From Candidatus Zixiibacteriota bacterium (GTDB lineage Bacteria > Zixibacteria > MSB-5A5 > WJJR01), in contig JAVHPP010000050.1 in NCBI GenBank assembly GCA_036170655.1, positions 1 through 49,690 of the forward strand: a stretch of 49,690 nucleotides of DNA, given 5' to 3'. This document shows positions 22,497 to 41,039 of this stretch, one piece after another. Each line of letters begins with the position of its first letter. The stretch's first letter is position 1. The notes beneath the pieces were generated by a model. That model did not search any database and had not been told where the DNA came from. It saw only the letters and a program-made list of their open reading frames with translations. Position numbers and translations under genes: made by a program.

Positions 22497-24491
22497 CTAT
22501 CCCGTGGTTTTCAGGAGCGCCGTGAGTTTCGCGGCGTCCTCTTGCAGGATGCGCATCTGTTCAGCATGATTGTGCGTCCCACGTGAGCCGTCGACTTCGA
22601 GCGCCCGAAGGTGGCGACGGATCGGTTCCAGGGCGGTCTCCCGTTCCGATGTTGTTGGTGCGGCTCCAACTTGAGCGACAAGAGAGTCGACTGTTTGCCG
22701 CAGGGACGCAAACTCCGCGAGCCATTGGCGGTGGCGGTCGGCGTATGTGTTGTCATGACAATCGGCGCACCGTTGCGATGGCGGCCGGACAATCTCGTGG
22801 TCAGGCCGCTCGTGGCAATCACGGCAGGTGGCACCCGCGGCAATCATCACGTCGGGTGTGCCCGCCGGCAGGTCATTGGATTTCGCGTTCAAGATTGCCT
22901 CTTGGGTCGTATGGCAGTATCCGCATGACCGCTCGGTCTGCGAGTGGTGGCAGGCGAGGCAGTCGCTCTTCTGCACGATGAGTTCACCGTGCCGGCGCTG
23001 GTTCGAATGGCACCGGGTGCACGTTTGCTGCGCGTTGATGAGGTGGCGTCGGTGTGAATACGTCAGCCCAAAAATCTGCGCATTGATCTCTTCGATGCCG
23101 AGGTGGCAGTTGATGCAGTTCGACGGGACAACTCCGCTTTCCCTCTGAATTTCCGTCAGCTCGTACCCCGGTTTCGCCATCTTGTAGAATTGGCCCAAGC
23201 GGCTGTAAGCGGCGTCCAACAGCCGGTCGGCGTACATGATGTTGTGAATCGGTTTGCCCTGGTGGACCATGTCATAGTTGTACTTCGCCTCGCGCAGGAG
23301 CGAGTCGGCTGCCGGAATGGCCCTCAGGTGACGGGAAACCGTAATCAGTTCGGTGGCGTCGGCCAACGCCCGTCCAACCAAATCCAGTTTATTCTGTGCG
23401 GATTTCTTCCAGTTGTCCAGAAGCCGGCCGTAGCCTTTCCCGTGGCATGATTCGCAGCTTTCGCCGGATGCAATGAACGTCTTGCCTGTGAACCCGACGC
23501 TGTCGGTCGTGGTGTGTACGATGTGGCATCCCTGACAGGAAATGCCCTTTGCGTACATGGGGTTGGGCTGGTCTGGCACACCAATCCCCCCATGACCGGT
23601 GAACAGGTCCTTCTGTGCCTCGTGGAATCCTTCGTGACAGGTTTGACACTCGGGGATCACTCTGTCCTTGAACGTCGATTTATGCTGCATGGAGAGGTGG
23701 CACTGATTGCATTCGATCTTGTGTTCCGTAATGTGCTTCGAATGCATCAGAGCTGTGCTATCGTACTGATTCAACCGTTCGCGGTCCCAGTGACACGAGT
23801 AACAGCGTTCACGCGGCACCGCGCCGTCACCGACGACCATGGTGCCATGGCATTTGACACAGTCGATCTGTCGCCGGATGACCTCCATGTGGTCGAACTT
23901 CGGTGGTTCCTGTCCGGCCACGGTAGTTGGCGGATCGTGGCAGATTGTGCAGCGGGCCTTGTTGTTCCCCTGTTCGTCGAGCTTGAAGTGGCAGATAATG
24001 CAACTGTTCTCCGTGACCGTCATGTGTTCGCCCTGCACAATCTGGGAATGACAAGATGTGCACCGGAGCTTCTTGCCTCGTCGCATCTCCACCAGGTGGG
24101 GGGTGTGGTCGAAGTTGACCTTCTTGAACATCACCCGTCCGTGCAGGAGCCGCTCCGCGTGGCAACCGGATCGCAGGCAGGACTCGTCGAAGATTTCGGC
24201 CCACGGTTTCGACCGGCGGTACGAGTTCGTCCAGTATTTCACGAGTTGATTGAGGTCGCGCAGCTTTCCCTTGACGACGTTCGAGTATCCCGGTTCATAG
24301 TGGCATTCACGGCAGGGAACGTTGTGATGTGACGATGAAGCCCAGGCATCGTAAAAGGGCTGCATGTAGTGACAGGTTGTGCAGAAATCCGACCGGTTGG
24401 TGAATTGCACGGCCCCGACAAACAGCAGTGCGGCAGCCAGCCCCGCGATCAGCGCCCCCAGTCCCGCTCGACGAATCCAAACCCTGGTCAT
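22497..24491 (-). CDS. Membrane-anchored multiheme cytochrome c with an N-terminal NapC/NirT-like domain (17 CXXCH + 1 CX4CH)
   Basis: N-terminal TM helix followed by 'T...FCTTCHYM.P.Y..W..SSH..V.C.ECH'. Motifs counted by hand. Confidence 0.9.
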   Translation of the reverse strand: MTRVWIRRAGLGALIAGLAAALLFVGAVQFTNRSDFCTTCHYMQPFYDAWASSSHHNVPCRECHYEPGYSNVVKGKLRDLNQLVKYWTNSYRRSKPWAEIFDESCLRSGCHAERLLHGRVMFKKVNFDHTPHLVEMRRGKKLRCTSCHSQIVQGEHMTVTENSCIICHFKLDEQGNNKARCTICHDPPTTVAGQEPPKFDHMEVIRRQIDCVKCHGTMVVGDGAVPRERCYSCHWDRERLNQYDSTALMHSKHITEHKIECNQCHLSMQHKSTFKDRVIPECQTCHEGFHEAQKDLFTGHGGIGVPDQPNPMYAKGISCQGCHIVHTTTDSVGFTGKTFIASGESCESCHGKGYGRLLDNWKKSAQNKLDLVGRALADATELITVSRHLRAIPAADSLLREAKYNYDMVHQGKPIHNIMYADRLLDAAYSRLGQFYKMAKPGYELTEIQRESGVVPSNCINCHLGIEEINAQIFGLTYSHRRHLINAQQTCTRCHSNQRRHGELIVQKSDCLACHHSQTERSCGYCHTTQEAILNAKSNDLPAGTPDVMIAAGATCRDCHERPDHEIVRPPSQRCADCHDNTYADRHRQWLAEFASLRQTVDSLVAQVGAAPTTSERETALEPIRRHLRALEVDGSRGTHNHAEQMRILQEDAAKLTALLKTTG

Positions 24492-24530
24492 ATTTCCGAT
24501 TCTCTTTCCAGAACGCTGATGGGTACGGTT

Positions 24531-27341: not shown

Positions 27342-27387
27342 GCGGGGTCATCCCATCGATGCAGGATAGCCGTGACCGTGAGACGCT

Positions 27388-29424
27388 TCATGCACGAGGT
27401 TCCGTCTCTGTCCTCTCCGGATCGGTTGTCCCGGTGGCCTGGTCTGTCGGTTGCGGGCCGGCCATTCGCCGGTACCAAGCGGGATGCTTCTCCCGGAGGA
27501 TGTGCTCTGTCATTTTGCCGTCCATCCAGGTCAGGCTCATCGGGAACTCATCGGGATGGAAGATAACAAAGAAGAAGTGCCACACGATGATTGCGAGGGT
27601 CGCCAGCCACGCCTCGTAGTAATGAACGGTCTCCGACGCAATGACCACCCAGCTTGGCATCATCCGTGTGAAGGCCTCGGGAAACCACAAGACCAGGCCG
27701 GTGGCGATCATCACGACCGTGCCCCAGACCAGTGCCCAATACTCCGCCTTCTCCGTGTAGTCGTAGCGGTCGAAGTCTGGTTTGACCGGAGACCATCCAA
27801 GATGGTGGCGTATGTTCTGCCATGCCTGCCGGACGTCCGACAGTCTTGGGATCAGATGATAGAGTTCCGTGCGTCCACGACGGGTGGCCATGAGAAACAC
27901 CACGTGGTAGGCCGCCGCCCCCGTCATGAGCATTGCCGCCACCCGATGAATGACCCCGCGGATGCCTTCGGTCAGACCAACGAAGTTCATCGGTCGCGAC
28001 CACCATGCGTCCGGGAAGCGCAGAGCGAATCCGGTGATGACCAGAATGATGAAGGACAGCGCTAACGTGATGTGCTGTATCACCATGCTGCGCGAGAAAC
28101 GTTCATAGGTGACCTGAGTGACCTCTGTTTGCCTCTTGCGGCGGATGTAGTGGAGGATGATGATCCCATTGTGCAACGCCATCCCGCCGATCAACACCAC
28201 GATGAGCGGGATATAGATCGTCTCGATGATCCCCTTTAAGCTGTCGCGCGCGCCGAGGACCGCTTCGTGCGTGTAGGAGGCCGCGAATGTTGCGGTGGCC
28301 TTCGGATGACACTTCTGGCAGGTGGCGACAATGTGTCCCGGTGCAATGGAACTGGCGGGGTTAGTCGATGGGAGAATATCGTGGGCACGGTGACAACTGA
28401 TGCAGTTGGCGGCCTTTGTGGAGCCGCGGCGGATCGCCATGCCGTGATAGGAGTCCTGATAGCTTGAGATGCGTCCGCCCTTGAGTCCGTACTTGGCGAC
28501 CAGATCACGGTTGTTGTGACATTTGGCGCAGACGTAATCCGAGAGATTCGTGACGTTCACCGGCGAGTCCGGCCCGGATGGCGCCAGAATCTCGTGCTCG
28601 CCATGGCAGTCGGTGCAATTCGGTGAGTCCGTCACGCCACCCGCGAGCGCTTGCCCATGAATTCCACGACGGTACTGCGCGTAGATCTCGCCGTGACACT
28701 GGCCACACGTTGCGGGAATGTTGTACTTATTGACCTTTGACTGCGGATCGCTTGCACGCTTCAGATCGTGCGTACCGTGACAGCTGTTGCAAGTGGCGGC
28801 GCTCAGCACGCCTTCGTTGATCCGCTGGGAATGTATCCCTCCGAGATAACGCCCGTATGCATCCACCAGACGCACATCGGTGCCCGCACCGGCTGCCAGG
28901 CGGCTGTGGCACGCCGCGCACGTGCGGGGGAGATTCTGCGGGTGGACCATCGACTGCTTGTCGCTCGCTGGGCGGATGTCGTGCGTGCCATGGCAGGAGG
29001 CGCAGGTCGGGGCCACAACGTCGCCGTGACGTTGCGCCGCCGCCTGCCCGTGCCAACTCGTCGCGAATTGCGCCGCAATGTCCTCGTGGCATGATCCGCA
29101 GTGGACCGGCGCCAGTTTCTCGGCGTGAGGGAAATCCGTGACGTTGGCCAGTTCGGAATGACAATCCACACAGGTCATGCCGCCATGTGAAGACGCAGCC
29201 AGCGTCTGCCCGGTGACGACCAGAGACTCAGCCCGACTTCCCTGATCCTCGAATAGGGAACGGTCCGCATGACAATCATCGCACGCGACACCACCAGCCA
29301 ACGCGGCTCTTGTGCACACAAACATGATCAAGAGCAGGAGTTTGCACAGATTGCCGGCCAGCCGTGTCGTGGCGGCTAAGGCTGCCCATCGCCGTGTGAT
29401 CCAGTTATCGCCTGATCGGGACAT
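27388..29424 (-). CDS. CbcL-like fusion: 11 CXXCH plus C-terminal cytochrome b
   Basis: 11 CXXCH, then QH..L..SF..L.ITG, IHRVAA, EKAEYWALVWG, VHYYEAWLA and WHFFFV. Confidence 0.92.
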   Translation of the reverse strand: MSRSGDNWITRRWAALAATTRLAGNLCKLLLLIMFVCTRAALAGGVACDDCHADRSLFEDQGSRAESLVVTGQTLAASSHGGMTCVDCHSELANVTDFPHAEKLAPVHCGSCHEDIAAQFATSWHGQAAAQRHGDVVAPTCASCHGTHDIRPASDKQSMVHPQNLPRTCAACHSRLAAGAGTDVRLVDAYGRYLGGIHSQRINEGVLSAATCNSCHGTHDLKRASDPQSKVNKYNIPATCGQCHGEIYAQYRRGIHGQALAGGVTDSPNCTDCHGEHEILAPSGPDSPVNVTNLSDYVCAKCHNNRDLVAKYGLKGGRISSYQDSYHGMAIRRGSTKAANCISCHRAHDILPSTNPASSIAPGHIVATCQKCHPKATATFAASYTHEAVLGARDSLKGIIETIYIPLIVVLIGGMALHNGIIILHYIRRKRQTEVTQVTYERFSRSMVIQHITLALSFIILVITGFALRFPDAWWSRPMNFVGLTEGIRGVIHRVAAMLMTGAAAYHVVFLMATRRGRTELYHLIPRLSDVRQAWQNIRHHLGWSPVKPDFDRYDYTEKAEYWALVWGTVVMIATGLVLWFPEAFTRMMPSWVVIASETVHYYEAWLATLAIIVWHFFFVIFHPDEFPMSLTWMDGKMTEHILREKHPAWYRRMAGPQPTDQATGTTDPERTETEPRA

Positions 29425-29552
29425 CGTTATCTCAGGGAGTCAGCCAGCCAAGACCGGCTGACCGTCAGTCTCGGAGGAGGGAACAGCCGTTCTCCGGAAG
29501 CAGGCGGTACATTCATCACGGGCCCAAATATAAGGGAGCGCCCCGGTCACAC

Positions 29553-29570
29553 ATGCGAAATAATTCACCA
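29553..29570. promoter_or_regulatory. Rex/CRP-type box
   Basis: ATGCGAAATAATTCACCA, upstream of the c/b-fusion operon. Confidence 0.45.
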
Positions 29571-29709
29571 ATTCTGTCACATTCTCTCCCTCTCCGAGAA
29601 TCCAGAGCGGTACCACACATTCAAAGCGGAAAGATTAAAGCGTCACGACACGCCATGATCGGACGTGACGACTGCACGTGACAATCCTGAGGGCAGAGAT
29701 TGAAGCGAC

Positions 29710-30834
29710 TTAGCTGCCGTTCTTGGCGTGGCACTGATCGCAGCCGTCACCCGGGATGGCGGCCGCTGGATCCCAGCGCAAGGCAAACGAATGGCTGTTC
29801 CCGTGCGCCTGATGACAGCTCAAGCAGAACACACCGTTCTTCGCCGGGTCGACAACCATGGCATCGGTGAAGTTCACCGCGCCGTCATTCACAAACCGCA
29901 GGCGCGGTGTGGCTCCGAACCCGACGCCGGCACCGGTGGCCCAGTGTGCTGGATCGGTCGTCCCGCGCACAGCGCCCTGCGCGATGTTATTAGTGGACAG
30001 GCGCTCGCTTTCATAGGAGGGATGGCGGTTGTGCCAGCCGTTGCCATCGGGGTCGGTGTAGTATTCCCCGGTGAACACGTGGTGGCAGTCGACGCACATG
30101 TTCGTGACTTCCCGCAGATTGTCCGTGTTATCGGTACCATAAGCAACATTGGACGCTTCGTAACGCTGGAGTCCCGTCGCAGTGGCCGCTTCCAAAAGGC
30201 CGAACGGAGGCTCGCCACCCGGATACGATGCCCATTGCAGATTACGCGCACGGCCATTGCCATGCGGGTTGTGGCAATCGATGCATGTGACGGAGGCCGT
30301 GGCGAAAGTCCCCCCGAAGTGGCAACGATCGCAAAGAGCCGATCCCTCAATCGACTGCCCACGATCGAGCGAGTGTCCGCGCGGGTTGCGGGTTCCGACG
30401 GCGTCAAAGAACCCGGCGGATCGCTCGGTCAGTCCGTTGACGTCGGCGCCCATCACATCAGGAATTCCTGTCTGGCCGTTGTGACAGGTGAGACACAAAT
30501 CAATCGGGTCTGGGGTCTTTAGGAGTTTCGGTCCGCCCACGAATTGCTGCGGGTATCCGCCAAATGGGTCGGGACTCAGTTCTTCCCCGATCGGGTGTTG
30601 CTTGGACTCGTGCATGACGTGGCAGTCGGAGCAACGGAGCGTGGCCCCACTGTGATACGTGCTTGTGGCGCTGGTGATACCTGATGGTGACTTGGCAGTT
30701 GCTGCGGCGGCATGAATCCGCCGTAGGGTGACGCTCCCCTGCGGGCCGGTGGCGGCCTCAATTGACGAAGAGCCAGAGGAGAGAGTCAAAAATCCACCAA
30801 GAATCACTGTTAGAAGCAAGATCAGTTTGTACAT
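29710..30834 (-). CDS. OmcS-family multiheme cytochrome c paralog with 7 CXXCH
   Basis: Signal peptide, then YH-X6-CSDCHVMH, LL..., LCLTCH, GH, an extra CDRCH, CIDCHNPHG, RNL, CVDCH, RHP, CLSCHQAH and CDQCHAK. Confidence 0.8.
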   Translation of the reverse strand: MYKLILLLTVILGGFLTLSSGSSSIEAATGPQGSVTLRRIHAAAATAKSPSGITSATSTYHSGATLRCSDCHVMHESKQHPIGEELSPDPFGGYPQQFVGGPKLLKTPDPIDLCLTCHNGQTGIPDVMGADVNGLTERSAGFFDAVGTRNPRGHSLDRGQSIEGSALCDRCHFGGTFATASVTCIDCHNPHGNGRARNLQWASYPGGEPPFGLLEAATATGLQRYEASNVAYGTDNTDNLREVTNMCVDCHHVFTGEYYTDPDGNGWHNRHPSYESERLSTNNIAQGAVRGTTDPAHWATGAGVGFGATPRLRFVNDGAVNFTDAMVVDPAKNGVFCLSCHQAHGNSHSFALRWDPAAAIPGDGCDQCHAKNGS

Positions 30835-30999: not shown

Positions 31000-32037
31000 T
31001 TAGCCTTGGACATGACAGGACTTGCACAGATTACGATACTGAGAGCCGGCTCCCTGCTCGTCGATCGCCACAGTTCCCGCGGAATCTGGGTAGATCAAAC
31101 CATACGCCCGCTGGTTGCCGTGGCCTTTGTGACAGGAGAAGCACGACGGGGTCAGGTCGGCCGGAGCCGCCGCCCACGCCACGCCTTGGGTTCCCCAGTC
31201 CATGCTGGCGCTCATGACCTTGACGCGATACGGATCGCTCTTGAAATGCGTCAGGCTGGAGTGCCCGCCGCCGAGGGCGCCGATATTGGCGTCGGCCGTC
31301 GGGTGACGGAGCCACTCTTCGCCGGCCGCGCCGAGCTGGTTGCGCATATTCGCATCCGCAGACGAGCCGTGGAAGTTGGTGTGACAGGACTTGCAGAACT
31401 CGCCGTAGTACGACTTTGTCTGGTCCGGCTCGTTGAAGTCCACGTTCCCGATGTCGTAGTGATTGCCGCCGGTGGCTGTACGCTCGAACACATCAACGAC
31501 CGACGTGTCGGTGGAAACGGCGTAAGAGATGCTGGCGCCATCGTGGTACAGATTCCGGTAGGGGTTGGAGGCTCTGGCGCCACCGCGACCGTGTGCCGAG
31601 TGACAATCGATACACTCCAAACCATCAGGGTTGGTGAACGCGCCGCCCGGAGCCATTGCGGCCGATCCCAGCGTGTGCCCATCGGCCGGATAGTACGGGC
31701 CGGCGCTGGTCGTGATGTTTAACCCGCCAGCCTGACGGCCAAGCGCCGGCGCTGTTCCGCCGTTCGCTTCCATAACATCAGGAGCGAACGCTGTGTTGTC
31801 ATGACAGGTCAGGCACAGAGCATTGGGTTCGTTGCGCAGTAAAAAATTATACGGCGCCGCGCCGCCGAGGTTGGTGTAAGTTCCACCGCCGTTGGCGTTG
31901 TACCCATGTTGCATTGAGCCGTGCATGACATGGCACTCGGCACAGTTCAATGTGCCCTTGTAGTGATAATCGCCGGCCACCGCGACCGTCGCGGCGACGA
32001 ACGCCAGCGCGGCGACCAGTACTGCAACTTTCCTCAT
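31000..32037 (-). CDS. OmcS-like hexaheme cytochrome c (candidate nanowire subunit)
   Basis: Sec signal ending in AVA and six CXXCH in OmcS-like order: YH-X6-CAECHVMH, LCLTCH, GH...APGG...L.CIDCH.AHG, YRNL, CKSCH.NFH, RHP, CFSCHKGH, LCKSCH at the C-terminus. ATG 32037 follows GGAGG. Confidence 0.85.
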   Translation of the reverse strand: MRKVAVLVAALAFVAATVAVAGDYHYKGTLNCAECHVMHGSMQHGYNANGGGTYTNLGGAAPYNFLLRNEPNALCLTCHDNTAFAPDVMEANGGTAPALGRQAGGLNITTSAGPYYPADGHTLGSAAMAPGGAFTNPDGLECIDCHSAHGRGGARASNPYRNLYHDGASISYAVSTDTSVVDVFERTATGGNHYDIGNVDFNEPDQTKSYYGEFCKSCHTNFHGSSADANMRNQLGAAGEEWLRHPTADANIGALGGGHSSLTHFKSDPYRVKVMSASMDWGTQGVAWAAAPADLTPSCFSCHKGHGNQRAYGLIYPDSAGTVAIDEQGAGSQYRNLCKSCHVQG

Positions 32038-32084: not shown

Positions 32085-33098
32085 TCATTTCTCGGTTTCT
32101 GGATCTGCGGCGACGGGTTGCGAACCGGCGCGATCGGCTTTCGCCAAAACACCCGGGAGGACATACTCCTGGACACGGCGTCCCACCCGTTCCGCGACAA
32201 AAATGTTGTCCACGCCATTGCCGCTCAGCGCCGACGGATAGCGCAAGTTTCCGGGTGCCTGTCCGTATCCGCCGATGTAGCCCAAATACTTGCCGTCGGC
32301 GGCGTAGTGCTTGACCGCCTGACGCAGGGCATCAGCCACCCAGAACGTTCCATCCTCAGCGAAGAGCAACGACGCGGGATACGAAAGGTCTGCGCCCGCG
32401 ACCTCATGTCCACCAAAGCTTACAGACAACTGGCCCGTTGGATTGTATATCCGGACTGCCGGAGTGCCCTTGTAGTCGAGCACCGCCACCCGGCCATCGG
32501 GTGCCACTGACATGCCGGTGATGCATTCAATTTTCTCGCTGGCGGCGTCAATGAAGACCTCGCAGGGACCGCCACTGGCAAGACGACGGATGACGCCGGC
32601 GCGATCACCCGCGACACTGGCATAAAGCCATCCGGCGCTGTCGACGCCCAACTTCTCAGGACGGAGTGAGATATCCTGCCATCCCGCACACACGAGGATG
32701 TCGATCTGTTCGAGGACTTCGCCACGGATGTTGAGGACGTCGATGGTCCGCGAAAAGAAATCGGTGATGAAGATCTCGCCCGCGGGAGTGATGGCGATCG
32801 CATTTGGCTCACCGGCGATGCGCTGCTTGGTCTGGGCGTCAGTGATCCAGTGAGTGAAGGAGAAACGAGGGAAGCCGGCGGAGTCGATTACATCGATGGA
32901 GTGCCGGGCGGCATCAAGCACATAAATCTCATGGGAGACAGGGTCAGGGGCCATTCCGGTGATTGATTGGAACCCGGCTGCCCCCACCGGATCGTAATAG
33001 ATGTTATTGACCATCCATGGACTGGTTTGCGCTGCCACGGGCACTGCAAGAGTGAGAGCCAAGAGCAAGGAGCCCGCGATGGCGGTCAACTTGAGCAT
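32085..33098 (-). CDS. Secreted NHL-repeat beta-propeller protein
   Basis: Signal peptide and repeated P..IA...G.IF(I/V).D units, e.g. 'GG.GQAPGNLRYP'. ATG 33098 is preferred over GTG 33143, which lies inside an operator-like box. Confidence 0.88.
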   Translation of the reverse strand: MLKLTAIAGSLLLALTLAVPVAAQTSPWMVNNIYYDPVGAAGFQSITGMAPDPVSHEIYVLDAARHSIDVIDSAGFPRFSFTHWITDAQTKQRIAGEPNAIAITPAGEIFITDFFSRTIDVLNIRGEVLEQIDILVCAGWQDISLRPEKLGVDSAGWLYASVAGDRAGVIRRLASGGPCEVFIDAASEKIECITGMSVAPDGRVAVLDYKGTPAVRIYNPTGQLSVSFGGHEVAGADLSYPASLLFAEDGTFWVADALRQAVKHYAADGKYLGYIGGYGQAPGNLRYPSALSGNGVDNIFVAERVGRRVQEYVLPGVLAKADRAGSQPVAADPETEK

Positions 33099-33127: not shown

Positions 33128-33145
33128 TAGTGAAATTAGTCACAT
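33128..33145. promoter_or_regulatory. Rex/CRP-type box
   Basis: TAGTGAAATTAGTCACAT. Confidence 0.55.
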
Positions 33146-33420: not shown

Positions 33421-33622
33421 TTTCTGACAACTTCTGTCAAGTGTGAAGCGCAGGTCAGCGGCGAATGTAACCATGAAGATGGCATTTGACCATTCGCGTG
33501 TGCAATCTTTGCAGGTGTGCCGATGTGAACACCGAAAGTGGCCCGGTTCCAAGTCCTGAAGCAGCGGATGCGGCGATCTCACTGAATTGGTTGTATTTGC
33601 TGCCGGTGACATGAGGACAGCA

Positions 33623-34477
33623 TTACTGGTCGTGATGATCGCAGGGCAGATTTTTCAGGAAGGGCGCAATCTTTTGCACAGCATGCCGTGAGACGGCATG
33701 GGCAAGACGGGTGATGTCATGTTCAACGCCCAACCCAAAGAGCCATTCGCCGCTATTGCCGATCGCGTGAAACGTGTCCGACCACACCGTGATCCCAGTC
33801 TTGGCATCCCTGACTTGCATAGCGATGCCCGCCACGGGAACAGGTCCCGCATAAGGGTCTTCGAAGGTCTCGTAGGCGAGGATTGAGCCGAGGATAAAAT
33901 AGTCGGCAGTAAGAGACACAGCGAGCCGGGCTCGCTGGTCCTCGTCCATGAGCATCGGGACACGAATCCGCGCGCGCAGGACCGCTGATTCCACGTCTCC
34001 GGCCGGGACGAGTTCTGTTCTGCCCGACTGTGCCAGTTCGCTCTCCACAAGACGGGCGAAAACGCGCGCCCCCTCCTCCGATCCGGCCAGATTCTCGAAG
34101 GCTAGGACGGCAATGCGTGGTCGCGCGGGCACGACATGGAGAATCTGGGTGCATGTCTGTTTCGTCCCGCATGTGTCAGCAACAATCCACGACCTCGTGA
34201 TTGTGTACTGTCCCTCCATTGTGTTATCCGGTTCGCGTCTGTCCAAAAAGCTCAGCGACACGGGACCGCAGCCACCGGTGGCGACCGGTATCCAGGGACC
34301 GACGGAGTCAGTCAGATGATTGCAGGAGATCGTTGCTTCGGCAGCACACTTGATCGCCAATGTGACTTCGTTTCCATGGGCATTGGCTCGCGCGGGCAAG
34401 AGTAGCGTTGCCGCAATCAAGAGCGGGCCGGCGACGGCGATTGTTCGGGACTGTGCTCCAACCGGCATGCCAGTCAT
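33623..34477 (-). CDS. Exported protein: Cys-containing HYR-like Ig module plus CsgG/TolB-N-like domain
   Basis: Signal peptide (ANA), 'C...ATGGCG...TITRSW..AD.CG...CTQ' and then 'RIAVLAFEN...AD..ILGSI...DAKTG.TVW'. ATGA overlap with the upstream gene. Confidence 0.7.
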   Translation of the reverse strand: MTGMPVGAQSRTIAVAGPLLIAATLLLPARANAHGNEVTLAIKCAAEATISCNHLTDSVGPWIPVATGGCGPVSLSFLDRREPDNTMEGQYTITRSWIVADTCGTKQTCTQILHVVPARPRIAVLAFENLAGSEEGARVFARLVESELAQSGRTELVPAGDVESAVLRARIRVPMLMDEDQRARLAVSLTADYFILGSILAYETFEDPYAGPVPVAGIAMQVRDAKTGITVWSDTFHAIGNSGEWLFGLGVEHDITRLAHAVSRHAVQKIAPFLKNLPCDHHDQ

Positions 34478-35049
34478 CGCAAAGTCTCCAAAGCGCTCCG
34501 GCATAGCTTTGTCGTCAGTTCCGCGAGCGTGTGCGTCTCGCCAAAGGAGAATATGGGCATCTTCGGGCCGCCGCGCTCATCGATGGAAACATCCCAGACA
34601 ATCCGTCCCGTGGGCGCGTCGGCCAGTTGCAGAGAGAATGAGACGAGAGGAAACTCTTCTTGTCCCACACGTTCCATACGGTAATCCCTGACAATCCCCA
34701 GAATGATTCCGTGCGCCCCGGTTTTCTCGCCGATTGCTTTCATCGCGACACTGTCCAGCGCCGCGTCCGCGGAGAGACTCAGTTCCGTTCGCGTCTCCGC
34801 TTCCACCTTGGCCGTTTGTCCCAGAGGGACGATCTCGAATCCTTTGTGTTTCAATAACTCGGTGATGAGAATGCGTTGAACTTTCTGTCCCGCTCGCGGG
34901 TCTTCTGTCAGTGTCTGGAACTGGGCGATGGCGATCCGGCGGTAGAAGCCCATGTCTGCTTCCGGGTTGAGGTATGCGCGCGGCCCGCCGCACCCGAAAA
35001 AGAGTATTGCTGCCAATATGAGCGGGAGATGCTGTCTGTGTAGGGTCAT
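34474..35049 (-). CDS. Lipoprotein with CsgG/TolB-N (GNA1162-like) domain
   Basis: Lipobox LFFGC, 'RIAIAQF', 'IGEKTGAHGIILGIV.DY' and 'L.DAPTGRIVW'. Confidence 0.78.
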   Translation of the reverse strand: MTLHRQHLPLILAAILFFGCGGPRAYLNPEADMGFYRRIAIAQFQTLTEDPRAGQKVQRILITELLKHKGFEIVPLGQTAKVEAETRTELSLSADAALDSVAMKAIGEKTGAHGIILGIVRDYRMERVGQEEFPLVSFSLQLADAPTGRIVWDVSIDERGGPKMPIFSFGETHTLAELTTKLCRSALETLR

Positions 35050-35068
35050 GCCGGTGCTCCGTCGGTTA

Positions 35069-36727
35069 TCAGAACTGCGTCGAAAAACCCAGTCCCCAGC
35101 TTTCATGTCCCAGGCCGGCGACATCGTTCTGGTGATTGTACTGTGCAGTGACCGTCGTGCGTGTGTCCGCCCACCAGAGCAGTTCCGCCACGAAAGTCGA
35201 GGGATTCTTCCCGGTTCCTGGAACCGGCGTCACGTTGGGCGCCGTTTGTATATGGCGTGCCGAGTAGTTCATGCTGATGCTGGCAAACGACGGCCAACGA
35301 TAGGTACCGGTCATGGACCACGTGGCGACCCATTTTGTCATCAGTAGACGATTCCGCCGCAGTCCCCATGAGCCCGCGAGGCTAAAATCGGGTGAAGGCA
35401 AGTACTGGAGGTTGCCGTTGTAGCTCTCCTCCGAAATATGAATGGCGCCGATCTGAGTCGCGGTTAGCGATGCCGAATAACCGGCTTGTGCCTGCGCATT
35501 GGGCAATGGCTCCAAGCGTGCGTACGTATTCATGCTGCCTCCGTAGCGTTCCGTCTGGCGGCCGTGCTGATCGGAGAGACTGAGCTCGCTCGACCAGTCG
35601 GTGTGCCGAAAGGGGCGGCCACGCAGAGTCAGAAGATAGGCGTCGGAATATTGTCTGCCCGTTGGCGCGCCGGTATAAATGATGCGATACACGGTCGCGA
35701 ACGCTCGGATCTGTCTGTACATCCTGCCTTCCGTAGCGAGGCGAGTTTGCCAATAGTCCGTCCGGTTCCCGGGCTGATTCACGCGATCTCCGATCCGTTC
35801 AAAGTACCGCAGAACACCGAAATTGAGCGCCCGCGCCGGTGTAACAGTCACAGATGCCGACGCGAGATGATCAGCAGAGTTGTTCGAGAGAGTGTTGCGT
35901 CGAGGACCAATCGCCAGGAATCGTCCGCTGTACTGGGCGGACCAGTTGACCGCGCTGACCGGCTGCCCTGAGAGATTGGCTGTTGCCGTATGCTGGTCTT
36001 GCGCGCCTGGTGCGACGGAGCGTCTCTGACTCCACGTCCGGTCGAAATTATATCCCAGGTTGACGTGATGGCGCCAGGGGAGAGAGCGCTCGGTTGAGCC
36101 GCCCACCCGATACACTTCGAGGATTTCCGCCGGCGTCTGCTGCTGGGTGCGCATCTGCCGTGAATAGCTCGCCGAGAGAACCGACGCCCTTGGCTGCCAG
36201 CTGAGGCCGTACGAGTCCCAGCGATCACGCGAGCCCCGTCCTTCGGCCAGCGTGTCACGTAGGCGCTGCAGATCATAGGTGAAACGGGGCCATCCTAACG
36301 GTTGGGCAAACACATTTGCGCGCCAGCGGCGACTGGACTGTGCGTTCTGAACAGTTCCCGATTGCTGTCGGATGGGTTCATAGGCCAGTTGTCCGCCGTA
36401 TCCATAGCTGCTTAGCTGCAGAGCGTAGCGTGGACGAAACTCCGGCGGCTGACCGGGTCGGCCGGATCGATAGTCAAAATTGCCGATCAAACTCAACTGG
36501 TTCTTATAGAACAGCCGGTCTATGACACGAAGATAATACTGCTGCAACAAGAGACCTCCGTGGGTTTCGGCGCCAGGAGTCGTCTGGTAATCGACGCGTA
36601 CAGATCCGTTCCAAGTTTGTGCCACGCCGCGTGCGGCGCCCAGCACAAATATGCCAGGTAGGAGTAGGAGTCCCAGGCAAAGAGCAGGGGGCCGGGGAAT
36701 GGGCGGCGGAACGAGCGTGTCAGTCAC
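35069..36727 (-). CDS. Outer-membrane beta-barrel protein (porin / secretion channel candidate)
   Basis: Signal peptide (VAQ), many alternating amphipathic strands rich in Y/W/G/S/R, and C-terminal beta-signal WGLGFSTQF. Start is GTG 36727 (overlapping the upstream stop) or ATG 36748. Confidence 0.78.
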   Translation of the reverse strand: MTDTLVPPPIPRPPALCLGLLLLPGIFVLGAARGVAQTWNGSVRVDYQTTPGAETHGGLLLQQYYLRVIDRLFYKNQLSLIGNFDYRSGRPGQPPEFRPRYALQLSSYGYGGQLAYEPIRQQSGTVQNAQSSRRWRANVFAQPLGWPRFTYDLQRLRDTLAEGRGSRDRWDSYGLSWQPRASVLSASYSRQMRTQQQTPAEILEVYRVGGSTERSLPWRHHVNLGYNFDRTWSQRRSVAPGAQDQHTATANLSGQPVSAVNWSAQYSGRFLAIGPRRNTLSNNSADHLASASVTVTPARALNFGVLRYFERIGDRVNQPGNRTDYWQTRLATEGRMYRQIRAFATVYRIIYTGAPTGRQYSDAYLLTLRGRPFRHTDWSSELSLSDQHGRQTERYGGSMNTYARLEPLPNAQAQAGYSASLTATQIGAIHISEESYNGNLQYLPSPDFSLAGSWGLRRNRLLMTKWVATWSMTGTYRWPSFASISMNYSARHIQTAPNVTPVPGTGKNPSTFVAELLWWADTRTTVTAQYNHQNDVAGLGHESWGLGFSTQF

Positions 36728-37847
36728 CCCCAGATGGGTTGTGAACATTGAACCCCGTCGGAGTGGAATAATCCCGTCCGTGGCAGTCGTAGCAATGCTT
36801 CGTTTCGTAACTGCGGTGCGGATACCGGTTCGGGAGTTTGGGGGCCGTGATTCCTTCCACCGGAATTGATGGGGTCGTTTGATCCGCATAGGCGTGACAC
36901 CCCGTGCAGAATCGGCGCACTTGCGTGGAATCGGATTGGAGGTTCGTCAGTCCATACCATCCCGGCCGCTGATCGGAGATCAAGAACGCGTTGGGATGCT
37001 GACCATCGCTGCCTATGGATCCATGTGCATTGTGGCAGTCGTAGCAGGGGAGGCGGTCGCCATTTTTCACGGCGCCAGAGGTGTGTTCAGTGGCATGTCC
37101 CGCCCGGTCTGATCCGGTCACCGTGCGGCTGTAAAAATCGGCGATGCGGCGTGATTCCGGCGAGAGTGTCCCGGGTCCATTTGGGCCATGACAACTGAAG
37201 CAGAGGTCATATTCGGGTGGTGCCCCATTTGTCGTCGAGCCGCCGATCGGGCCATATTGTTTCTGCAACTGATCGTAGGGCGAGGCGCCGTCGTGGGGAT
37301 CATGGCAGTTCAGGCACGATCCACGCCCGGTCCCGTCGAGTCTGGGCATGTTGGGGCTTCCGTAATGCTTCGAGTAGGTAAGGTTTTCCCAGATGAGCCG
37401 TCCCGGCCAGCGAACGCGATTTCTCGTGCCTGTGAGTTTCTGCCCGCCGGAGTTTGCTTCGAAGTAGCCGTGATAAGTATGGACGGCTGGCAGGCGGTCC
37501 TGCTCCTGTGCCGGATATCCCGATGTGCCGCCGTCGGGACGGTTGATGTGGCATCCCTCGATCCCGTTGGTCGAGTAGCACAGCATATTGTCATTCGGCG
37601 CGAAGAGGTTCTGTACCTGGGGGGATTGATCCGCGTGCATGATGTGGCACTGCTGGCAGTCGCCGCGCGGAACGGCGGCGTCGCGCATCACGCCGCTGGT
37701 CGGCGACCCATGCGCGCCTTCATAGGGAAGATTGGGACTTGCCGCAGGAGCACTCCGCGATGACTGAACGATGACAATTGTGGCTGCGACACCCAGAAAG
37801 ATAGGTGCCAGCCTTTCCACCGTTGGGGCGAAGAGGAATCGTCTCAT
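36720..37847 (-). CDS. Secreted multiheme cytochrome c (6 CXXCH + 1 CX8CH)
   Basis: CQQCH, CYSTNGIEGCH, CLNCH, CFSCH, CYDCH, CTGCH and CYDCH, after an N-terminal hydrophobic signal. Confidence 0.88.
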   Translation of the reverse strand: MRRFLFAPTVERLAPIFLGVAATIVIVQSSRSAPAASPNLPYEGAHGSPTSGVMRDAAVPRGDCQQCHIMHADQSPQVQNLFAPNDNMLCYSTNGIEGCHINRPDGGTSGYPAQEQDRLPAVHTYHGYFEANSGGQKLTGTRNRVRWPGRLIWENLTYSKHYGSPNMPRLDGTGRGSCLNCHDPHDGASPYDQLQKQYGPIGGSTTNGAPPEYDLCFSCHGPNGPGTLSPESRRIADFYSRTVTGSDRAGHATEHTSGAVKNGDRLPCYDCHNAHGSIGSDGQHPNAFLISDQRPGWYGLTNLQSDSTQVRRFCTGCHAYADQTTPSIPVEGITAPKLPNRYPHRSYETKHCYDCHGRDYSTPTGFNVHNPSGGD

Positions 37848-37859
37848 GTTGTGGCCTGC

Positions 37860-40800
37860 CTATTTCTTCTTCTGCTCGGTTTTATGCTGCTCCGATGGAT
37901 CGTGACAACGCACGCATAACTCGCGGTTCGGTTCGCCCAGCAAAAGCGACGGATGGTCGGAGCTGTGCGGCGAGTGGCAGCCGGTGCAGATGACCGGACC
38001 GTCGCGGTTGGGATCCTTGGTGCCCTCTCCCATGGGGTGGAAGTGAGTCTTTTTCACATCGTCGTGGCACTGCTGGCAGAGTGTCATCACATCCGCTTCC
38101 GACAGCAGGAACTTGTTGTCACCCCCATGCGGTGTGTGACAGTTCGCGCAGTCTTCCGCCGCTGGGGGATGGACATTGGTGTTGGTCAACCTGATTGAGG
38201 TGTGACATGTCAGGCACACGGAGAAACCGCTCTTCTGCAAGAGGGCGGGGGTGTTCCCGGTGTGCGGCGAGTGGCACACGACACACCCGCCGCTGTCGGC
38301 GAGCGCAGGATGGGGAATCGGAGACCGGTCGATCTCGGCAAGGACTTTGGCATGGCAACGGCCGCAGAGTTCACGGTTGCCCTTGATCGCACGGCCCTGG
38401 CCCGTGGCATGGCAGACAGAACAGGTGCGCTGGGCGAACGGCGGATGCTCAACGCGTTTCAAGAGCGCGGCTGTTTCCCGTGGAGCGGAATGCGGATCAT
38501 GACAACTCACACAATCATTGACTGTGCCGCCCCCCTGATGCGATGACACCCAGCGCGGCGCTTTCGTGTCATGGCATTTCGCGCATAGTTCGACCGTGGG
38601 CGCTTTCAAGAGTGAGGGCGATGTCGATGAATGGCCGTCGTGGCAGATCAGGCAACCCTTGTCGAGGGCGGCATGGGGCCGTTCCTTCTCCAACCGGTTT
38701 TTCAGCGGCTGGTGGCATCCTAAGCAGATCTGGCGTGATGCGCTGACCAGGAGCGACGGTTCAGCGGAACCGTGCGGTGCATGGCAGTTCATGCACTGTC
38801 CATTAGCGAACGGCGCATGCAGATTGCCCGCCGGTTTGAGATCGTGACATTTCCTGCAAAGCGCGGTGGTGTCCGCCAACAGCAGTTTTTCGTTGTTCGA
38901 CGTGTGGGGATTGTGACAGGCCGTGCACTGTCCATCACGCGCTGGCGCGTGCACCGATGCCAGCTTGAGCTGCCTTTCCAAATCCTCGTGGCAATTGAGG
39001 CACACCTGTGGTTGCGGCTCGCTCAGTTTGGTGCTTCCGGGCGCATCATGGCAGACGTCGCAACTCCCCTCCGCAAAGGGAGGATGTTGCCGGGAACGGA
39101 TCAATGCCTTCTGGTCGCTTGCATGAGGATCGTGGCACGACGCACAATTGGCTGTTGAAAGATCGATTCCTCTGTGCGCTGCACTCTTGAGATCGGCGGG
39201 ATTGTGGCATGTCTGACAGATCGCGTTCGCCGCCTTCGTCAGCAGATGCTCGGCGTCTGCCTGATGCGGTGCATGACACTTGTTGCACGTGCCGTCCTTG
39301 AATGGCTTGTGTTGCACGGGCTTGTCACGCCATGCGGCCAGCTTCTCCCGATGGCAGGTCTGGCACAGACTGACCGCGGTGCTGTCAACCTTCGGATAGC
39401 GGAGAACACCGCCGACCGGAGTCTGTTCCATCTGACGGCGCGGTCCGAGGAGTTTCTTCACCGTGCTTCCATGGGGATTGTGACACCCTGTGCAGTCACC
39501 GTCTGCGAATGGCGCGTGGACTGACTTGCTCGTCCCGGCGACAGCCACATCATGGCAGCCGCCACAGAGTTCGCCGGTCTTCGCAACCAGCAATCTGGCA
39601 TTGGGGGCCTCATGCGCACCATGACACGTCAGGCAATCGTCCACCGGTGGATGCTTGACCGGCTCGGCAACCAATCGGGCGATATTCTGGTGGCACTGGA
39701 AACACAATGGCGGTCCTTCGGCACGCAAGTTGGCTTTCCCCGTGCCGGCATGCGGGTCATGACAGGCAGAACAATCCTGTTTCTTGGCGGGTTCATGTGC
39801 CACCATGCCAGGTACGTCTTTGGGCTTATGGCAACGGCCACACGTGGCTCGCGGCTCTTCTTTCAGCAGCGCCACCTGTTCGCTGGAATGAGGAACGTGG
39901 CAGTCGAGACAGGCTGCGCCTGCTGTCTTAAGGTGTTCCGACTTGGCAAACTTGTCTTTCGTGTGACACCCCAAGCAGAGCTCCTCACCGGCTTTCTTGA
40001 GCAGATGCTGGTTGGGGCTTCCGTGCGGATCATGGCACGCCTGACACTTGCCCTCGGCGACCGGTGCGTGTTTGCTCTGCGCCGCGGCGAGCTTGGCTGC
40101 GGTCATGTCTTCATGGCAGGTCTGGCATAACTCGCCGATGCCCCCCCGCAACAAGGCAGGATGGCTCGATCGATGAGCGACGTGGCATTCGTAACAATCG
40201 CCGGATTCCGCCGGAGGATGCCCAACGGCAGCCGTGAGTTTCCTGCCGATATCGTCGTGGCAACTCTTGCATCCTGTCCATGTCGAATCCGCCGGACCAA
40301 CCGCCGTGGCCGGCGGTGTGGGTTCAGCGTGGCAGGCACTGCACTTGCCCTCTCCCACAGGACGGTGGACACGGTCACCGATCAGCGACGCGCGCGTCGA
40401 ACGGTGCGGATCATGGCAGCCAATGCACTCAAGACCCGCGGTGGCCAGACCACGCTTCTGATGGTCGGCACGTGTCTTCGTTGTATTGTGGCATGTCTGG
40501 CATACGTCATCGGGCGACGCGCGCAAGAGCTTCGCCTGCGTTCCCGCATGTGGGACATGGCAGGCCATGCAGTCACGCTGGGCATAGGGCGCGTGCGGTT
40601 TTGGATGTCCGGTTGAGTCTGCCAGCGTCTGATGGCAAACAAAACAGGCGACGTCATCGTCGACGTTACGGATCAGCCCCTTGCGGTCCGACGAATGCGG
40701 ATCATGACAGGTGGTGCACAGCTCCTCCTTGACTGCCGGATGGACTTGGGGGAGGCCGGTGAGCGATGTATCAAAGTCCTGGTGGCAGCTCGTGCAGAGG

Positions 40801-41039
40801 GCCTTGCCCTTCTTTTGCAGAATCAGAGTATTGGAGAAGCCATGACGCACATGGCAGGCCTCACAGTTCTCTTTCGCCACGGGATCGTGTTTGAACCGGC
40901 GGTCGAATTTCTTTATGGATTCTTTGTGGCAGGAATAGCATGGCTTTTGCTCGGCGCGCAGCGTACCTGACCCGTCTACGACTGCCCACATGACAAGTGT
41001 CGCAACGGTCAGGACGTATATGTGTCGCAGCCGATTCAC
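37860..41039 (-). CDS. Giant periplasmic doubled-CXXCH multiheme cytochrome c (42 CXXCH)
   Basis: Tandem 'H.P...G.C..CH.PH.S....LL......LC..CH' units, with 42 CXXCH counted. GTG 41039 (after AAGGGA) gives a plausible signal peptide ending in LRA. Confidence 0.93.
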   Translation of the reverse strand: MNRLRHIYVLTVATLVMWAVVDGSGTLRAEQKPCYSCHKESIKKFDRRFKHDPVAKENCEACHVRHGFSNTLILQKKGKALCTSCHQDFDTSLTGLPQVHPAVKEELCTTCHDPHSSDRKGLIRNVDDDVACFVCHQTLADSTGHPKPHAPYAQRDCMACHVPHAGTQAKLLRASPDDVCQTCHNTTKTRADHQKRGLATAGLECIGCHDPHRSTRASLIGDRVHRPVGEGKCSACHAEPTPPATAVGPADSTWTGCKSCHDDIGRKLTAAVGHPPAESGDCYECHVAHRSSHPALLRGGIGELCQTCHEDMTAAKLAAAQSKHAPVAEGKCQACHDPHGSPNQHLLKKAGEELCLGCHTKDKFAKSEHLKTAGAACLDCHVPHSSEQVALLKEEPRATCGRCHKPKDVPGMVAHEPAKKQDCSACHDPHAGTGKANLRAEGPPLCFQCHQNIARLVAEPVKHPPVDDCLTCHGAHEAPNARLLVAKTGELCGGCHDVAVAGTSKSVHAPFADGDCTGCHNPHGSTVKKLLGPRRQMEQTPVGGVLRYPKVDSTAVSLCQTCHREKLAAWRDKPVQHKPFKDGTCNKCHAPHQADAEHLLTKAANAICQTCHNPADLKSAAHRGIDLSTANCASCHDPHASDQKALIRSRQHPPFAEGSCDVCHDAPGSTKLSEPQPQVCLNCHEDLERQLKLASVHAPARDGQCTACHNPHTSNNEKLLLADTTALCRKCHDLKPAGNLHAPFANGQCMNCHAPHGSAEPSLLVSASRQICLGCHQPLKNRLEKERPHAALDKGCLICHDGHSSTSPSLLKAPTVELCAKCHDTKAPRWVSSHQGGGTVNDCVSCHDPHSAPRETAALLKRVEHPPFAQRTCSVCHATGQGRAIKGNRELCGRCHAKVLAEIDRSPIPHPALADSGGCVVCHSPHTGNTPALLQKSGFSVCLTCHTSIRLTNTNVHPPAAEDCANCHTPHGGDNKFLLSEADVMTLCQQCHDDVKKTHFHPMGEGTKDPNRDGPVICTGCHSPHSSDHPSLLLGEPNRELCVRCHDPSEQHKTEQKKK

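What the first reader, a model, noticed from the sequence alone, without database searches (positions are those of the whole stretch)
22497..41039. Single-locus quinol-to-nanowire electron conduit (108 CXXCH) in an apparently non-Geobacter host
Seen: 11 co-oriented genes that could cover every envelope layer. Inner membrane: two c/b fusions and a NapC-type protein. Periplasm: a 42-heme and a 6(+1)-heme cytochrome. Outer membrane: a beta-barrel and two CsgG/TolB-N-like proteins. Exterior: an NHL propeller and two OmcS-family cytochromes. Established: OmcS polymerises into conductive filaments in Geobacter sulfurreducens, whose omcS region also encodes NHL proteins, lipoproteins, a barrel and large multiheme cytochromes. 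CbcL is a low-potential quinol-oxidising c/b fusion and, to my recollection, is encoded elsewhere in that genome. Inference: here quinol oxidation, periplasmic wiring, export and filament genes are linked in one locus and share operator-like boxes, in a lineage that may not be known for nanowires.
Basis: partly seen in the sequence, partly recalled or inferred. Interest (0 to 1): 0.92.

Follow-up and report, generated by a model that had tools for sequence, protein, structure and literature searches.

The report
Zixibacterial OmcS-type cytochrome wire locus
An uncultured Zixibacteria genome carries a relative of the Geobacter gene cluster for conductive cytochrome "nanowires", here beside membrane cytochromes that could feed it electrons and behind an NADH-sensing repressor site; the core system is known, and this packaging and control look new.

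Summary
The host is Ca. Zixiibacteriota by RpoB, not Desulfuromonadia. The hexaheme 31000-32037 has the OmcS fold (6EF8, Z 12.8, the only chain at Z≥8).

The outer eight genes are a relative of the published Geobacter omcS/osc cluster and its SEEP-SRB/OetABI counterpart. This scan already reported such clusters on other Zixibacteria and Eisenbacteria DNA.

Three additions:
(1) The 42-heme protein is a seamless fusion of the known 26- and 16-heme pair.
(2) The operator boxes are Rex sites: upstream of the NHL or OmcS-like gene in 28 of 62 related loci (permuted motifs: mean 0.19). The host has rex; no Crp was found.
(3) Two CbcL-like c/b fusions and an NrfH-like 17-heme protein adjoin the cluster.

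That adjacency is not generally conserved. It occurs in 3 of 12 class genomes holding both modules, all one genus, and 32 of 44 genomes with the c/b fusion gave no OmcS-like match. The locus looks like three transcription units, not one operon.

Best reading: an NADH-induced electron-export chain from quinol to a surface cytochrome. Polymerisation, direction and expression are not shown. New variant of a known kind.

The parts
22497..24491 (-). 17-heme (+1 CX4CH) membrane-anchored cytochrome c with an NrfH/NapC-like N-terminus (CXXCHXM first heme); candidate quinol oxidase with a long periplasmic heme chain
   Evidence: 2J7A_C E 1.3e-6, residues 11-65 only; one N-terminal hydrophobic helix
24531..27341 (-). 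20-heme cytochrome c fused to an FdnI-type cytochrome b domain (CbcL-like architecture)
   Evidence: PF01292 30.5 bits, cut-off 30.1; b-heme His conserved
27388..29424 (-). 11-heme cytochrome c fused to an FdnI-type cytochrome b domain (CbcL-like architecture); paralogue of the 20-heme gene (30% identity)
   Evidence: (1KQF_C E 3.4e-7; four heme-b His align)
29553..29570 (.). weak Rex-like box (3 mismatches) upstream of the inner-membrane unit
   Evidence: a 3-mismatch box at the same place in L005 and L042; 0 of 4 loci at 2 mismatches or fewer
29710..30834 (-). secreted 7-heme OmcS-family cytochrome; OmcS-type H-x6-CXXCH-x-M-H start plus one inserted CXXCH
   Evidence: profile vs 6EF8 E 1.2e-7
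31000..32037 (-). secreted hexaheme OmcS-family cytochrome; best candidate filament subunit
   Evidence: E 4.4e-11; Foldseek E 2e-5; Z 12.8, 253 aligned, rmsd 3.8; mature His16 in 119 of 120
32085..33098 (-). secreted NHL beta-propeller (alternative GTG start at 33143)
   Evidence: a homologue lies in 71 of 78 related loci
33128..33145 (.). second, weaker Rex-like box (3 mismatches) near the NHL start
   Evidence: similar paired boxes in L005, L042, L011, L018
33403..33420 (.). Rex operator (1 mismatch), overlapping a sigma70-like site
   Evidence: host rex gene
33623..34477 (-). LpoB/CsgG-like secreted protein with an extra N-terminal HYR_4C-like domain
34474..35049 (-). LpoB/CsgG-like lipoprotein (lipobox-like cysteine seen in the sequence)
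35069..36727 (-). outer-membrane beta-barrel: 28 strands with short loops in the model, C-terminal Phe; likely GTG start overlaps the stop of the upstream cytochrome
   Evidence: MtrB ranks first but is tied with other barrels
36720..37847 (-). 6(+1 CX8CH)-heme secreted cytochrome, a distant OmcS-family paralogue directly upstream of the barrel
   Evidence: 6EF8 E 0.0028; HHalign 97.8%
37860..41039 (-). 42-heme exported cytochrome; fusion of a 26-heme and a 16-heme protein
41112..41129 (.). weak Rex-like box (3 mismatches) upstream of the 42-heme gene
   Evidence: 0 of 40 related loci at 2 mismatches or fewer

Best explanation
This is a Zixibacterial variant of the omcS/osc cytochrome-export cluster, used to pass respiratory electrons out of the cell. 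Shown here by computation: gene content, OmcS fold, barrel fold, b-heme ligands, 26+16 fusion, Rex gene and boxes. Inferred steps: (1) the two c/b fusions and the NrfH-like protein oxidise menaquinol and load long periplasmic heme chains; (2) the 42-heme chain carries electrons across the periplasm in place of small triheme shuttles, none of which was found in this assembly; (3) the barrel and the two CsgG-like proteins export and anchor the OmcS-like cytochromes, with the NHL propeller as helper; (4) the hexaheme, perhaps with the 7-heme paralogue, polymerises through an inter-subunit His-heme bond and reaches solid acceptors such as Fe(III) or Mn(IV) oxides, humics or partner cells; (5) Rex releases the NHL/OmcS-like unit when NADH builds up, that is, when soluble acceptors run short. 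The inner-membrane genes are a separate, reusable module that sits next to the cluster in this genus.
For: OmcS is the only multiheme chain hit by the family profile (E 4.4e-11) and the only chain at Z≥8 of 48,161. The first 16 mature residues match OmcS in register, and His16 is kept in 119 of 120 homologues (that His16 is the inter-subunit ligand is recalled). Companion genes travel with it: NHL 71, lipoprotein 60, 42-heme or its halves 53 of 78 loci. Bridging loci L032, L056 and L081 carry the split 26(25)+16-heme pair plus a PPIase-like gene, the core described for SEEP-SRB1 and Geobacter. Rex boxes lie upstream of the NHL or hexaheme gene in 28 of 62 loci against 0.015 expected and a permuted-motif maximum of 3; rex is present, and no Crp HTH was found. 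The c/b fusions keep the FdnI heme-b His. In 2 of 9 inspected genome regions (L133, L135) they sit by MtrAB-like genes instead, and a c/b fusion directly follows the 42-heme gene in 2 of 5 further genomes tested.
Against: Only OmcS itself is known to form a wire, and OmcS-like hexahemes are prone to mis-assignment (PMC12977616 passages). Identity to OmcS is 19-22%, TM-score 0.47/0.39, and the protein is 85 residues shorter. Adjacency of inner and outer modules is seen in 3 of 12 class genomes with both; 2 have them about 58-59 kb apart and 7 on different contigs; 32 of 44 genomes with the 20-heme fusion gave no hexaheme match. The two titled loci with the full layout have near-identical RpoB, so they are not independent. 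Boxes before the inner unit and the 42-heme gene are weak (0 of 4 and 0 of 40 at 2 mismatches or fewer). Skennerton 2017 reports that the 26/16-heme homologues were not expressed during metal respiration in four cultured species, and another paper states OmcS is not required for Fe(III) oxide reduction. The PPIase-like gene is missing from this locus.
Confidence: 0.55

Rival explanations
1. Same outer cluster, but no long filament: the barrel holds a cytochrome as a porin-cytochrome conduit (OetABI or MtrAB style), and the OmcS-like proteins stay as surface monomers or short oligomers acting as terminal reductases.
For: The barrel's top fold match in both searches is MtrB. A multiheme gene directly precedes the barrel in the related loci inspected. 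Murali 2023 reads the homologous cassette as a porin-cytochrome conduit. The OmcS paralogues OmcT, OmcJ and GSU2501 are not known to polymerise.
Against: The MtrB match is tied with unrelated barrels (Z 15.7 against 15.2; 8-9% identity). His16 is nearly invariant in the hexaheme family. The osc genes are reported to serve OmcS folding and secretion (second-hand).
Confidence: 0.22
2. The conduit runs inward: it takes electrons from Fe(II) minerals or partner cells into the quinone pool, to be spent on oxygen through the host's heme-copper oxidase.
For: The homologous operon is proposed for electron uptake in the sulfate-reducing partners of ANME archaea. The host has a COX1 gene and ACIII-like and bc-like clusters (by inspection). 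Zixibacteria MAGs are reported with both iron oxidation and reduction genes.
Against: Rex derepresses genes when NADH is in excess (established knowledge, recalled), which fits a sink rather than a source. CbcL-type and NrfH-type proteins are characterised as quinol oxidases (for CbcL; NrfH entry title).
Confidence: 0.13
3. The inner-membrane trio is only a neighbour: a general quinol-oxidising module placed beside the osc-like cluster by a recent rearrangement, feeding other acceptors such as the MtrAB-like pairs elsewhere in the genome. This is compatible with the outer module still making filaments.
For: Adjacency is confined to one genus. Elsewhere the module sits with ImcH-like, bc-like, NrfCD-like or MtrAB-like genes, or alone. 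It has its own upstream spacer. The genome has other barrel-plus-multiheme pairs on C59 and C78.
Against: Looser links recur in other lineages: a c/b fusion right behind the 42-heme gene in L058 and L059, the 17-heme homologue convergent on the cluster in G086, and an 11-heme fusion 5-7 kb away in L021, L049 and L072. This assembly offers few other quinol-oxidising multiheme donors and no small triheme.
Confidence: 0.35

Closest known systems
omcS / omcS-companion (osc) cluster of Geobacter sulfurreducens, GSU2505-GSU2493 (Shen et al. 2025, Cell Chem Biol 32:239; not readable here, known second-hand from PMC13194489 and PMC12977616 passages)
   Same: Several OmcS-family hexahemes plus a conserved downstream block tied to maturation and secretion, including a 26-heme cytochrome (GSU2495) and a second large cytochrome (GSU2494). 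OmcS fold confirmed against 6EF8.
   Different: Host phylum; 26- and 16-heme proteins fused into one 42-heme chain; reversed block order; no PPIase-like gene and only one NHL gene in the locus; subunit about 322 against 407 residues; Rex boxes; inner-membrane cytochromes adjacent. Gene-by-gene orthology to Osc proteins was not tested because the Geobacter sequences were not obtained.
SEEP-SRB1 / HotSeep-1 cytochrome operon, OetABI cassette (Skennerton 2017 PMC5539420; Murali 2023 PMC10553843)
   Same: Propeller, 26-heme and 16-heme cytochromes, outer-membrane barrel, OmcS-like extracellular cytochromes.
   Different: There the 26- and 16-heme genes are separate, a PPIase is core, and electron uptake is proposed. 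In the passages read, the distribution is given for Desulfobacterota, Thermodesulfobacterales and Anaeromyxobacter.
CbcL (GSU0274) of G. sulfurreducens
   Same: Periplasmic multiheme c domain fused to a membrane cytochrome b domain; the 9-heme c domain and low-potential role are from PMC13591261 passages, the FdnI-type b domain of CbcL is recalled.
   Different: 11 and 20 hemes instead of 9; two paralogues in tandem; no direct alignment to CbcL was possible.
NrfH / NapC quinol dehydrogenases (PDB 2J7A)
   Same: N-terminal membrane anchor and first two hemes, with the CXXCHXM motif.
   Different: Similarity covers residues 11-65 only; 15 further CXXCH motifs follow.
MtrAB porin-cytochrome complex (PDB 6R2Q)
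   Same: Large open barrel encoded right after a multiheme cytochrome; top fold match.
   Different: 8-9% identity, match tied with other barrels; the upstream cytochrome is OmcS-like, not a decaheme MtrA.

Membership tests
OmcS-family cytochrome (31000-32037) | Six CXXCH hemes, exported protein | tested here: met
   6 motifs and a signal peptide
OmcS-family cytochrome (31000-32037) | OmcS fold and colinear sequence similarity | tested here: met
   profile E 4.4e-11; Foldseek E 2e-5; Z 12.8 over 253 residues, next hit 5.3
OmcS-family cytochrome (31000-32037) | N-terminal His in register with OmcS His16 (inter-subunit ligand; residue number recalled) | tested here: met
   register seen; conserved in 119 of 120; inter-subunit ligation of heme 5 described in PMC7096707 passage
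OmcS nanowire | Polymerises into a conductive filament | not testable with these tools
   needs cryo-EM or biochemistry; paralogues of OmcS are not known to form wires
osc / SEEP-SRB1 operon | 26-heme and 16-heme cytochromes | tested here: met
   present as one fused chain; split homologues map to residues 1-664 and about 670-1050
osc / SEEP-SRB1 operon | Six-bladed NHL propeller | tested here: met
   PF01436; the blade count was not modelled
osc / SEEP-SRB1 operon | PPIase chaperone gene within the cluster | tested here: not met
   PPIase-like genes lie in 5 of 78 related loci (L030, L032, L052, L056, L081); host matches lie on contigs C68, C92 and C131, none on this contig
osc / OetABI | Outer-membrane barrel with associated lipoproteins | tested here: met
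   28-strand model, two LpoB/CsgG-like genes
osc cluster | Gene-by-gene orthology to GSU2500-GSU2493 | not tested
CbcL | Multiheme c domain fused to an FdnI-type b domain with heme-b His ligands | tested here: met
   four His in 18-19 of 19 aligned homologues
CbcL | Nine c hemes | tested here: not met
   11 and 20; so CbcL-like, not filed as CbcL
CbcL | Low-potential quinol oxidation | not testable with these tools
   needs redox titration or complementation
NapC/NrfH | Full tetraheme NapC domain over family cut-off | tested here: inconclusive
   PF03264 31.4 bits against cut-off 24.1 but only profile positions 13-100 of 174; TIGR03153 47 bits against 134
Rex regulon | rex gene in the host | tested here: met
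   NF003993 250.7 bits against cut-off 217
Rex regulon | Conserved palindromic Rex box upstream (consensus recalled) | tested here: met
   NHL/hexaheme unit: 28 of 62 loci, permuted controls max 3; weak for the other two units
Rex regulon | NADH-sensitive binding | not testable with these tools
   needs a gel-shift assay

The most novel reading that the evidence does not exclude
In this Zixibacterial genus one 18.5-kb locus encodes a complete hard-wired path from menaquinol to an extracellular OmcS-type filament. A single 42-heme chain replaces diffusing periplasmic shuttles, and the path is switched on directly by the NADH/NAD+ ratio through Rex. That would be a minimal, transplantable nanowire circuit in a phylum far from Geobacter, and it would show how nanowires get charged from the inner membrane.
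Probability: 0.3. Interest if true: 0.8.

Novelty: new variant of a known kind. Interest (0 to 1): 0.5.

Why it matters
How OmcS-type filaments receive electrons from the inner membrane, and what the 26- and 16-heme osc cytochromes do, are open questions. The fusion says those two proteins work as one continuous chain, probably in one compartment. The neighbouring c/b fusions name candidate donors that can be tested. A conserved Rex box gives a concrete, testable regulatory rule and argues for electron export under acceptor limitation. About one in six sampled genomes of the phylum carry the 42-heme gene (40 of 251), so OmcS-type conduits may matter for metal and carbon cycling by uncultured subsurface bacteria. 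The core machinery, though, is already described.

Tried and rejected
Complex prediction of the barrel with the 6(+1)-heme protein gave no verdict (score 0.00); it is not used as evidence either way. No RNA holder was listed for 29700-37800, so expression is untested. A single-sequence PDB search with the hexaheme missed OmcS; only the family profile found it. No OmcS-, Osc- or CbcL-named model was hit in Pfam or NCBIfam. The repeat search returned mainly heme-motif codon repeats and no operator. Promoter and terminator scans were not clearly above shuffles. In the window alone, 4 Rex-like matches at up to 3 mismatches is within chance (9 of 100 shuffles); support comes from cross-genome conservation. 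A Crp/Fnr reading of the box was considered because the consensus overlaps; it is disfavoured since PF13545 was not found in the assembly, which does not prove absence. No bd oxidase was found. Shen 2025 and Wang 2019 were not held. A supplement search of PMC10553843 (12 of 17 files) gave no heme counts for OetA or OetB, so I could not map them to the 26- and 16-heme halves. The RpoB tree is the quick version; the careful search did not finish. Rejected: host is Desulfuromonadia; locus is an assembly chimera; locus is one operon conserved across the phylum; categorically new system.
Full report
OBSERVATION. Eleven genes run on the minus strand from 41039 to 22497. In transcription order they encode: a 42-heme cytochrome; a 6(+1)-heme cytochrome; a barrel; two LpoB/CsgG-like proteins; then, after a long spacer, an NHL propeller, a hexaheme and a 7-heme cytochrome; then, after about 285 bp, an 11-heme and a 20-heme c/b fusion and a 17-heme membrane-anchored protein. 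A contig from a second study spans 27238-41267 (run X5), so the join of inner and outer modules is not an assembly artefact. The five runs holding the DNA are titled groundwater (4 runs, one study, one possibly the source) and hot spring (1 run).

HOST. RpoB is 90%, 89%, 86% and 82% identical to genomes titled Ca. Zixiibacteriota (those of L042, L013, L007, L004) and 55% to the one titled Deltaproteobacteria (24 genomes). In a quick tree of 22 rows the host lies inside a fully supported clade holding all 7 Zixiibacteriota-titled rows. Four rows titled Ignavibacteria fall in the same clade and are probably mistitled. The host is therefore not Desulfuromonadia.

OMCS FOLD. A single-sequence search missed OmcS. 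A profile of 120 homologues hit it at E 4.4e-11, with no other multiheme chain. The AlphaFold model (pLDDT 85) matched 6EF8 by Foldseek at E 2e-5, TM 0.47/0.39, and by VIA-align at Z 12.8 over 253 residues, next hit 5.3. The mature N-terminus is in register with OmcS residues 1-16, and His16 is kept in 119 of 120 rows. A review passage states that heme 5 of OmcS is ligated by a His of the next subunit (PMC7096707); that this is His16 is recalled. The 7-heme protein is a second family member (E 1.2e-7). The 6(+1)-heme protein is a third, more distant one (HHalign 97.8%; E 0.0028). [quoted passage not shown]

OUTER MODULE. The barrel models as 28 strands with short loops, pLDDT 92.9. MtrB ranks first in both fold searches but is tied with other barrels, so the fold does not decide between a secretion pore and a porin-cytochrome. 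Among 78 loci fetched around hexaheme homologues (best 80 of 158 matches), BLAST found the NHL gene in 71, one lipoprotein-like gene in 60, the other in 47, the 42-heme gene or its halves in 53, the 6(+1)-heme gene in 37, the barrel in 30 and the 7-heme gene in 17; many loci are cut short. Record titles include Zixiibacteriota, Eisenbacteria, Krumholzibacteria, Gemmatimonadota, Acidobacteriota and Armatimonadota. The 42-heme gene was found in 40 of 251 genomes of the phylum sample.

THE FUSION. Twenty-seven ORFs in those loci carry 40 or more motifs. In L032, L056 and L081 the gene is split into 26 (25) and 16 hemes, which map best to residues 1-664 and about 670-1050 of the window protein, exactly at heme 26|27. 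The spacing across the join is 19-28 residues in the 26 proteins with exactly 42 motifs, like the spacing elsewhere in the chain. Those three loci also hold a PPIase-like gene, giving the four-gene core of the SEEP-SRB1 operon: propeller, 26-heme, 16-heme, PPIase (PMC5539420 passages). GSU2495 has 26 hemes and lies in the block linked to OmcS maturation and secretion; oscI and oscJ are GSU2495 and GSU2494 (PMC13194489). So the outer module is a relative of a known system. This locus lacks the PPIase-like gene and a small secreted protein found in many relatives.

INNER MODULE. Both c/b fusions keep the four His that align with the FdnI heme-b ligands (18-19 of 19 homologues). The 17-heme protein starts like NrfH, over residues 11-65 only. 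In a class sample of 121 genomes including the host, 22 matched the hexaheme, 26 the 17-heme protein and 44 the 20-heme fusion. By my count from those tables 12 have both hexaheme and 20-heme fusion: adjacent in 3 (G000, G083, G101; one genus), 58-59 kb apart in 2 (G053, G061), on different contigs in 7. Among the 78 loci the full layout appears in 2 (L005, L042), whose RpoB are nearly identical. These sets come from one collection and overlap, so the counts are not additive. In nine regions printed from other genomes the module sits with ImcH-like, bc-like, NrfCD-like or MtrAB-like genes, or alone (named by inspection, one further fetched region was not printed). Looser links recur: a c/b fusion directly behind the 42-heme gene in 2 of 5 genomes tested, both chosen because the start of that gene was already visible; the 17-heme homologue convergent on the cluster in G086; an 11-heme fusion 5-7 kb off in L021, L049 and L072. 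The single-locus layout is thus real but local.

REGULATION. The best is 33403-33420, 1 mismatch, overlapping a sigma70-like site. The host has rex with a box at its own start; another of the 9 genome sites at 2 mismatches or fewer lies before the ATP synthase operon. No Crp HTH was found. A box at 2 mismatches or fewer lies upstream of the NHL or hexaheme gene in 28 of 62 loci; the background expectation is 0.015 per locus and about 100 permuted palindromes gave mean 0.19, maximum 3. Related genomes are not independent, but the box occurs across several titled lineages. Upstream of the 42-heme gene it was 0 of 40 and of the 11-heme gene 0 of 4, so co-regulation of all three units is only suggested by 3-mismatch boxes.

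MECHANISM. Most likely, quinol is oxidised by the c/b fusions and the NrfH-like protein; electrons pass along the 42-heme chain to the outer membrane; the barrel and lipoproteins export and hold the OmcS-like cytochromes; the hexaheme forms a filament; and Rex lifts repression when NADH accumulates. No small triheme shuttle was found in the assembly (184 contigs, 100% by markers). The host also has a heme-copper oxidase and cytochrome c assembly genes, so this would be an alternative to oxygen. Components are shown; every electron-transfer step, the filament and the direction are inferred. Against: homologues of the 26/16-heme pair were reported not expressed during metal respiration, OmcS is reported dispensable for Fe(III) oxide reduction, and the homologous cassette is read as an uptake conduit in syntrophic sulfate reducers (PMC10553843 passages).

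LITERATURE SEEN. Passages only: PMC8478452, PMC13194489, PMC12307469, PMC10954620, PMC10553843 (12 of 17 supplements searched), PMC3495685, PMC13591261, PMC12133095, PMC9769843, PMC5539420, PMC12977616, PMC7096707. Abstract and introduction: PMC13712944. Not seen: Shen 2025 and Wang 2019. Searches listed no title on an omcS/osc cluster in Zixibacteria; I read passages of only two of the listed papers. One search found no paper joining Rex with multiheme extracellular electron transfer. Shen 2025 calls the machinery widespread in its title, and its survey and supplements, which I could not see, may already include this phylum. Six earlier notes of this scan reached the osc reading on other genomes, after I had formed it; they are not independent support.

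VERDICT. Real, and a new variant of a known kind. The distinctive points are the 42-heme fusion, the Rex box and the genus-level joining with quinol-oxidising cytochromes. Interest 0.5.

Noticed in passing
window 27388-29424 and 24531-27341 (b domains; residues 418 and 507 of the 11-heme protein): Two extra His in or next to membrane helices are invariant in 19 of 19 aligned c/b fusions, beyond the four FdnI-type ligands; they could bind a third b heme or the quinol.
   Followed up: partly
window 33623-34477: This LpoB/CsgG-like protein carries an N-terminal four-cysteine HYR-like domain (PF23237, under cut-off) and a non-lipoprotein signal; more distant relatives align mainly to its C-terminal part.
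   Followed up: no
L024:15187-15783 and about 30 other loci: A small secreted protein of about 150-165 aa lies just before the 42-heme gene in many relatives; no match in the host genome (best E 0.12). It may stand in for the chaperone.
   Followed up: partly
L042:17110-18380, L005:20384-20935, L130:559-3356: In close relatives the 17-heme gene is followed by a small multiheme gene and, in L042 and L130, a 4Fe-4S protein (with an NrfD-like gene in L130); in this window a GNAT acetyltransferase (21249-22376) follows instead.
   Followed up: partly
L133:15224-17793, L135:13590-16338: The 20-heme c/b fusion lies two or three genes from a decaheme-plus-barrel (MtrAB-like) pair in two other genomes of the class.
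   Followed up: no
L010, L035, L036, L071: Hexaheme homologues (53-60% identity) with few or none of the companion genes nearby; some are second copies in genomes that have the full cluster elsewhere.
   Followed up: no
L011:12320-14605, L136:228-2447: A large membrane protein that looks like a cytochrome c assembly protein flanks the cluster in these relatives (by inspection, not scanned).
   Followed up: no
G000 contigs C59, C78, C145, C49, C48: Other respiratory clusters in the host: barrel-plus-multiheme pairs (14 and 9 hemes; a partial one), an ACIII-like cluster, a bc-like cluster with an 8-heme protein, and a heme-copper oxidase.
   Followed up: partly
genomes of L011, L018, L023, L033, L040, L041: Record titles disagree with RpoB placement: four 'Ignavibacteria' fall among Zixiibacteriota, a 'Bacteroidota' with Eisenbacteria, a 'Fibrobacteraceae' with Krumholzibacteriota.
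   Followed up: partly
window 19088-21072: A Big_5 Ig-like lipoprotein and a hemerythrin gene on the plus strand converge on the end of the locus.
   Followed up: no
window 48428-49090: An ORF that looks like an HTH-nucleotidyltransferase near the contig end, with lower GC; possibly part of an MNT-HEPN pair (by inspection only).
   Followed up: no
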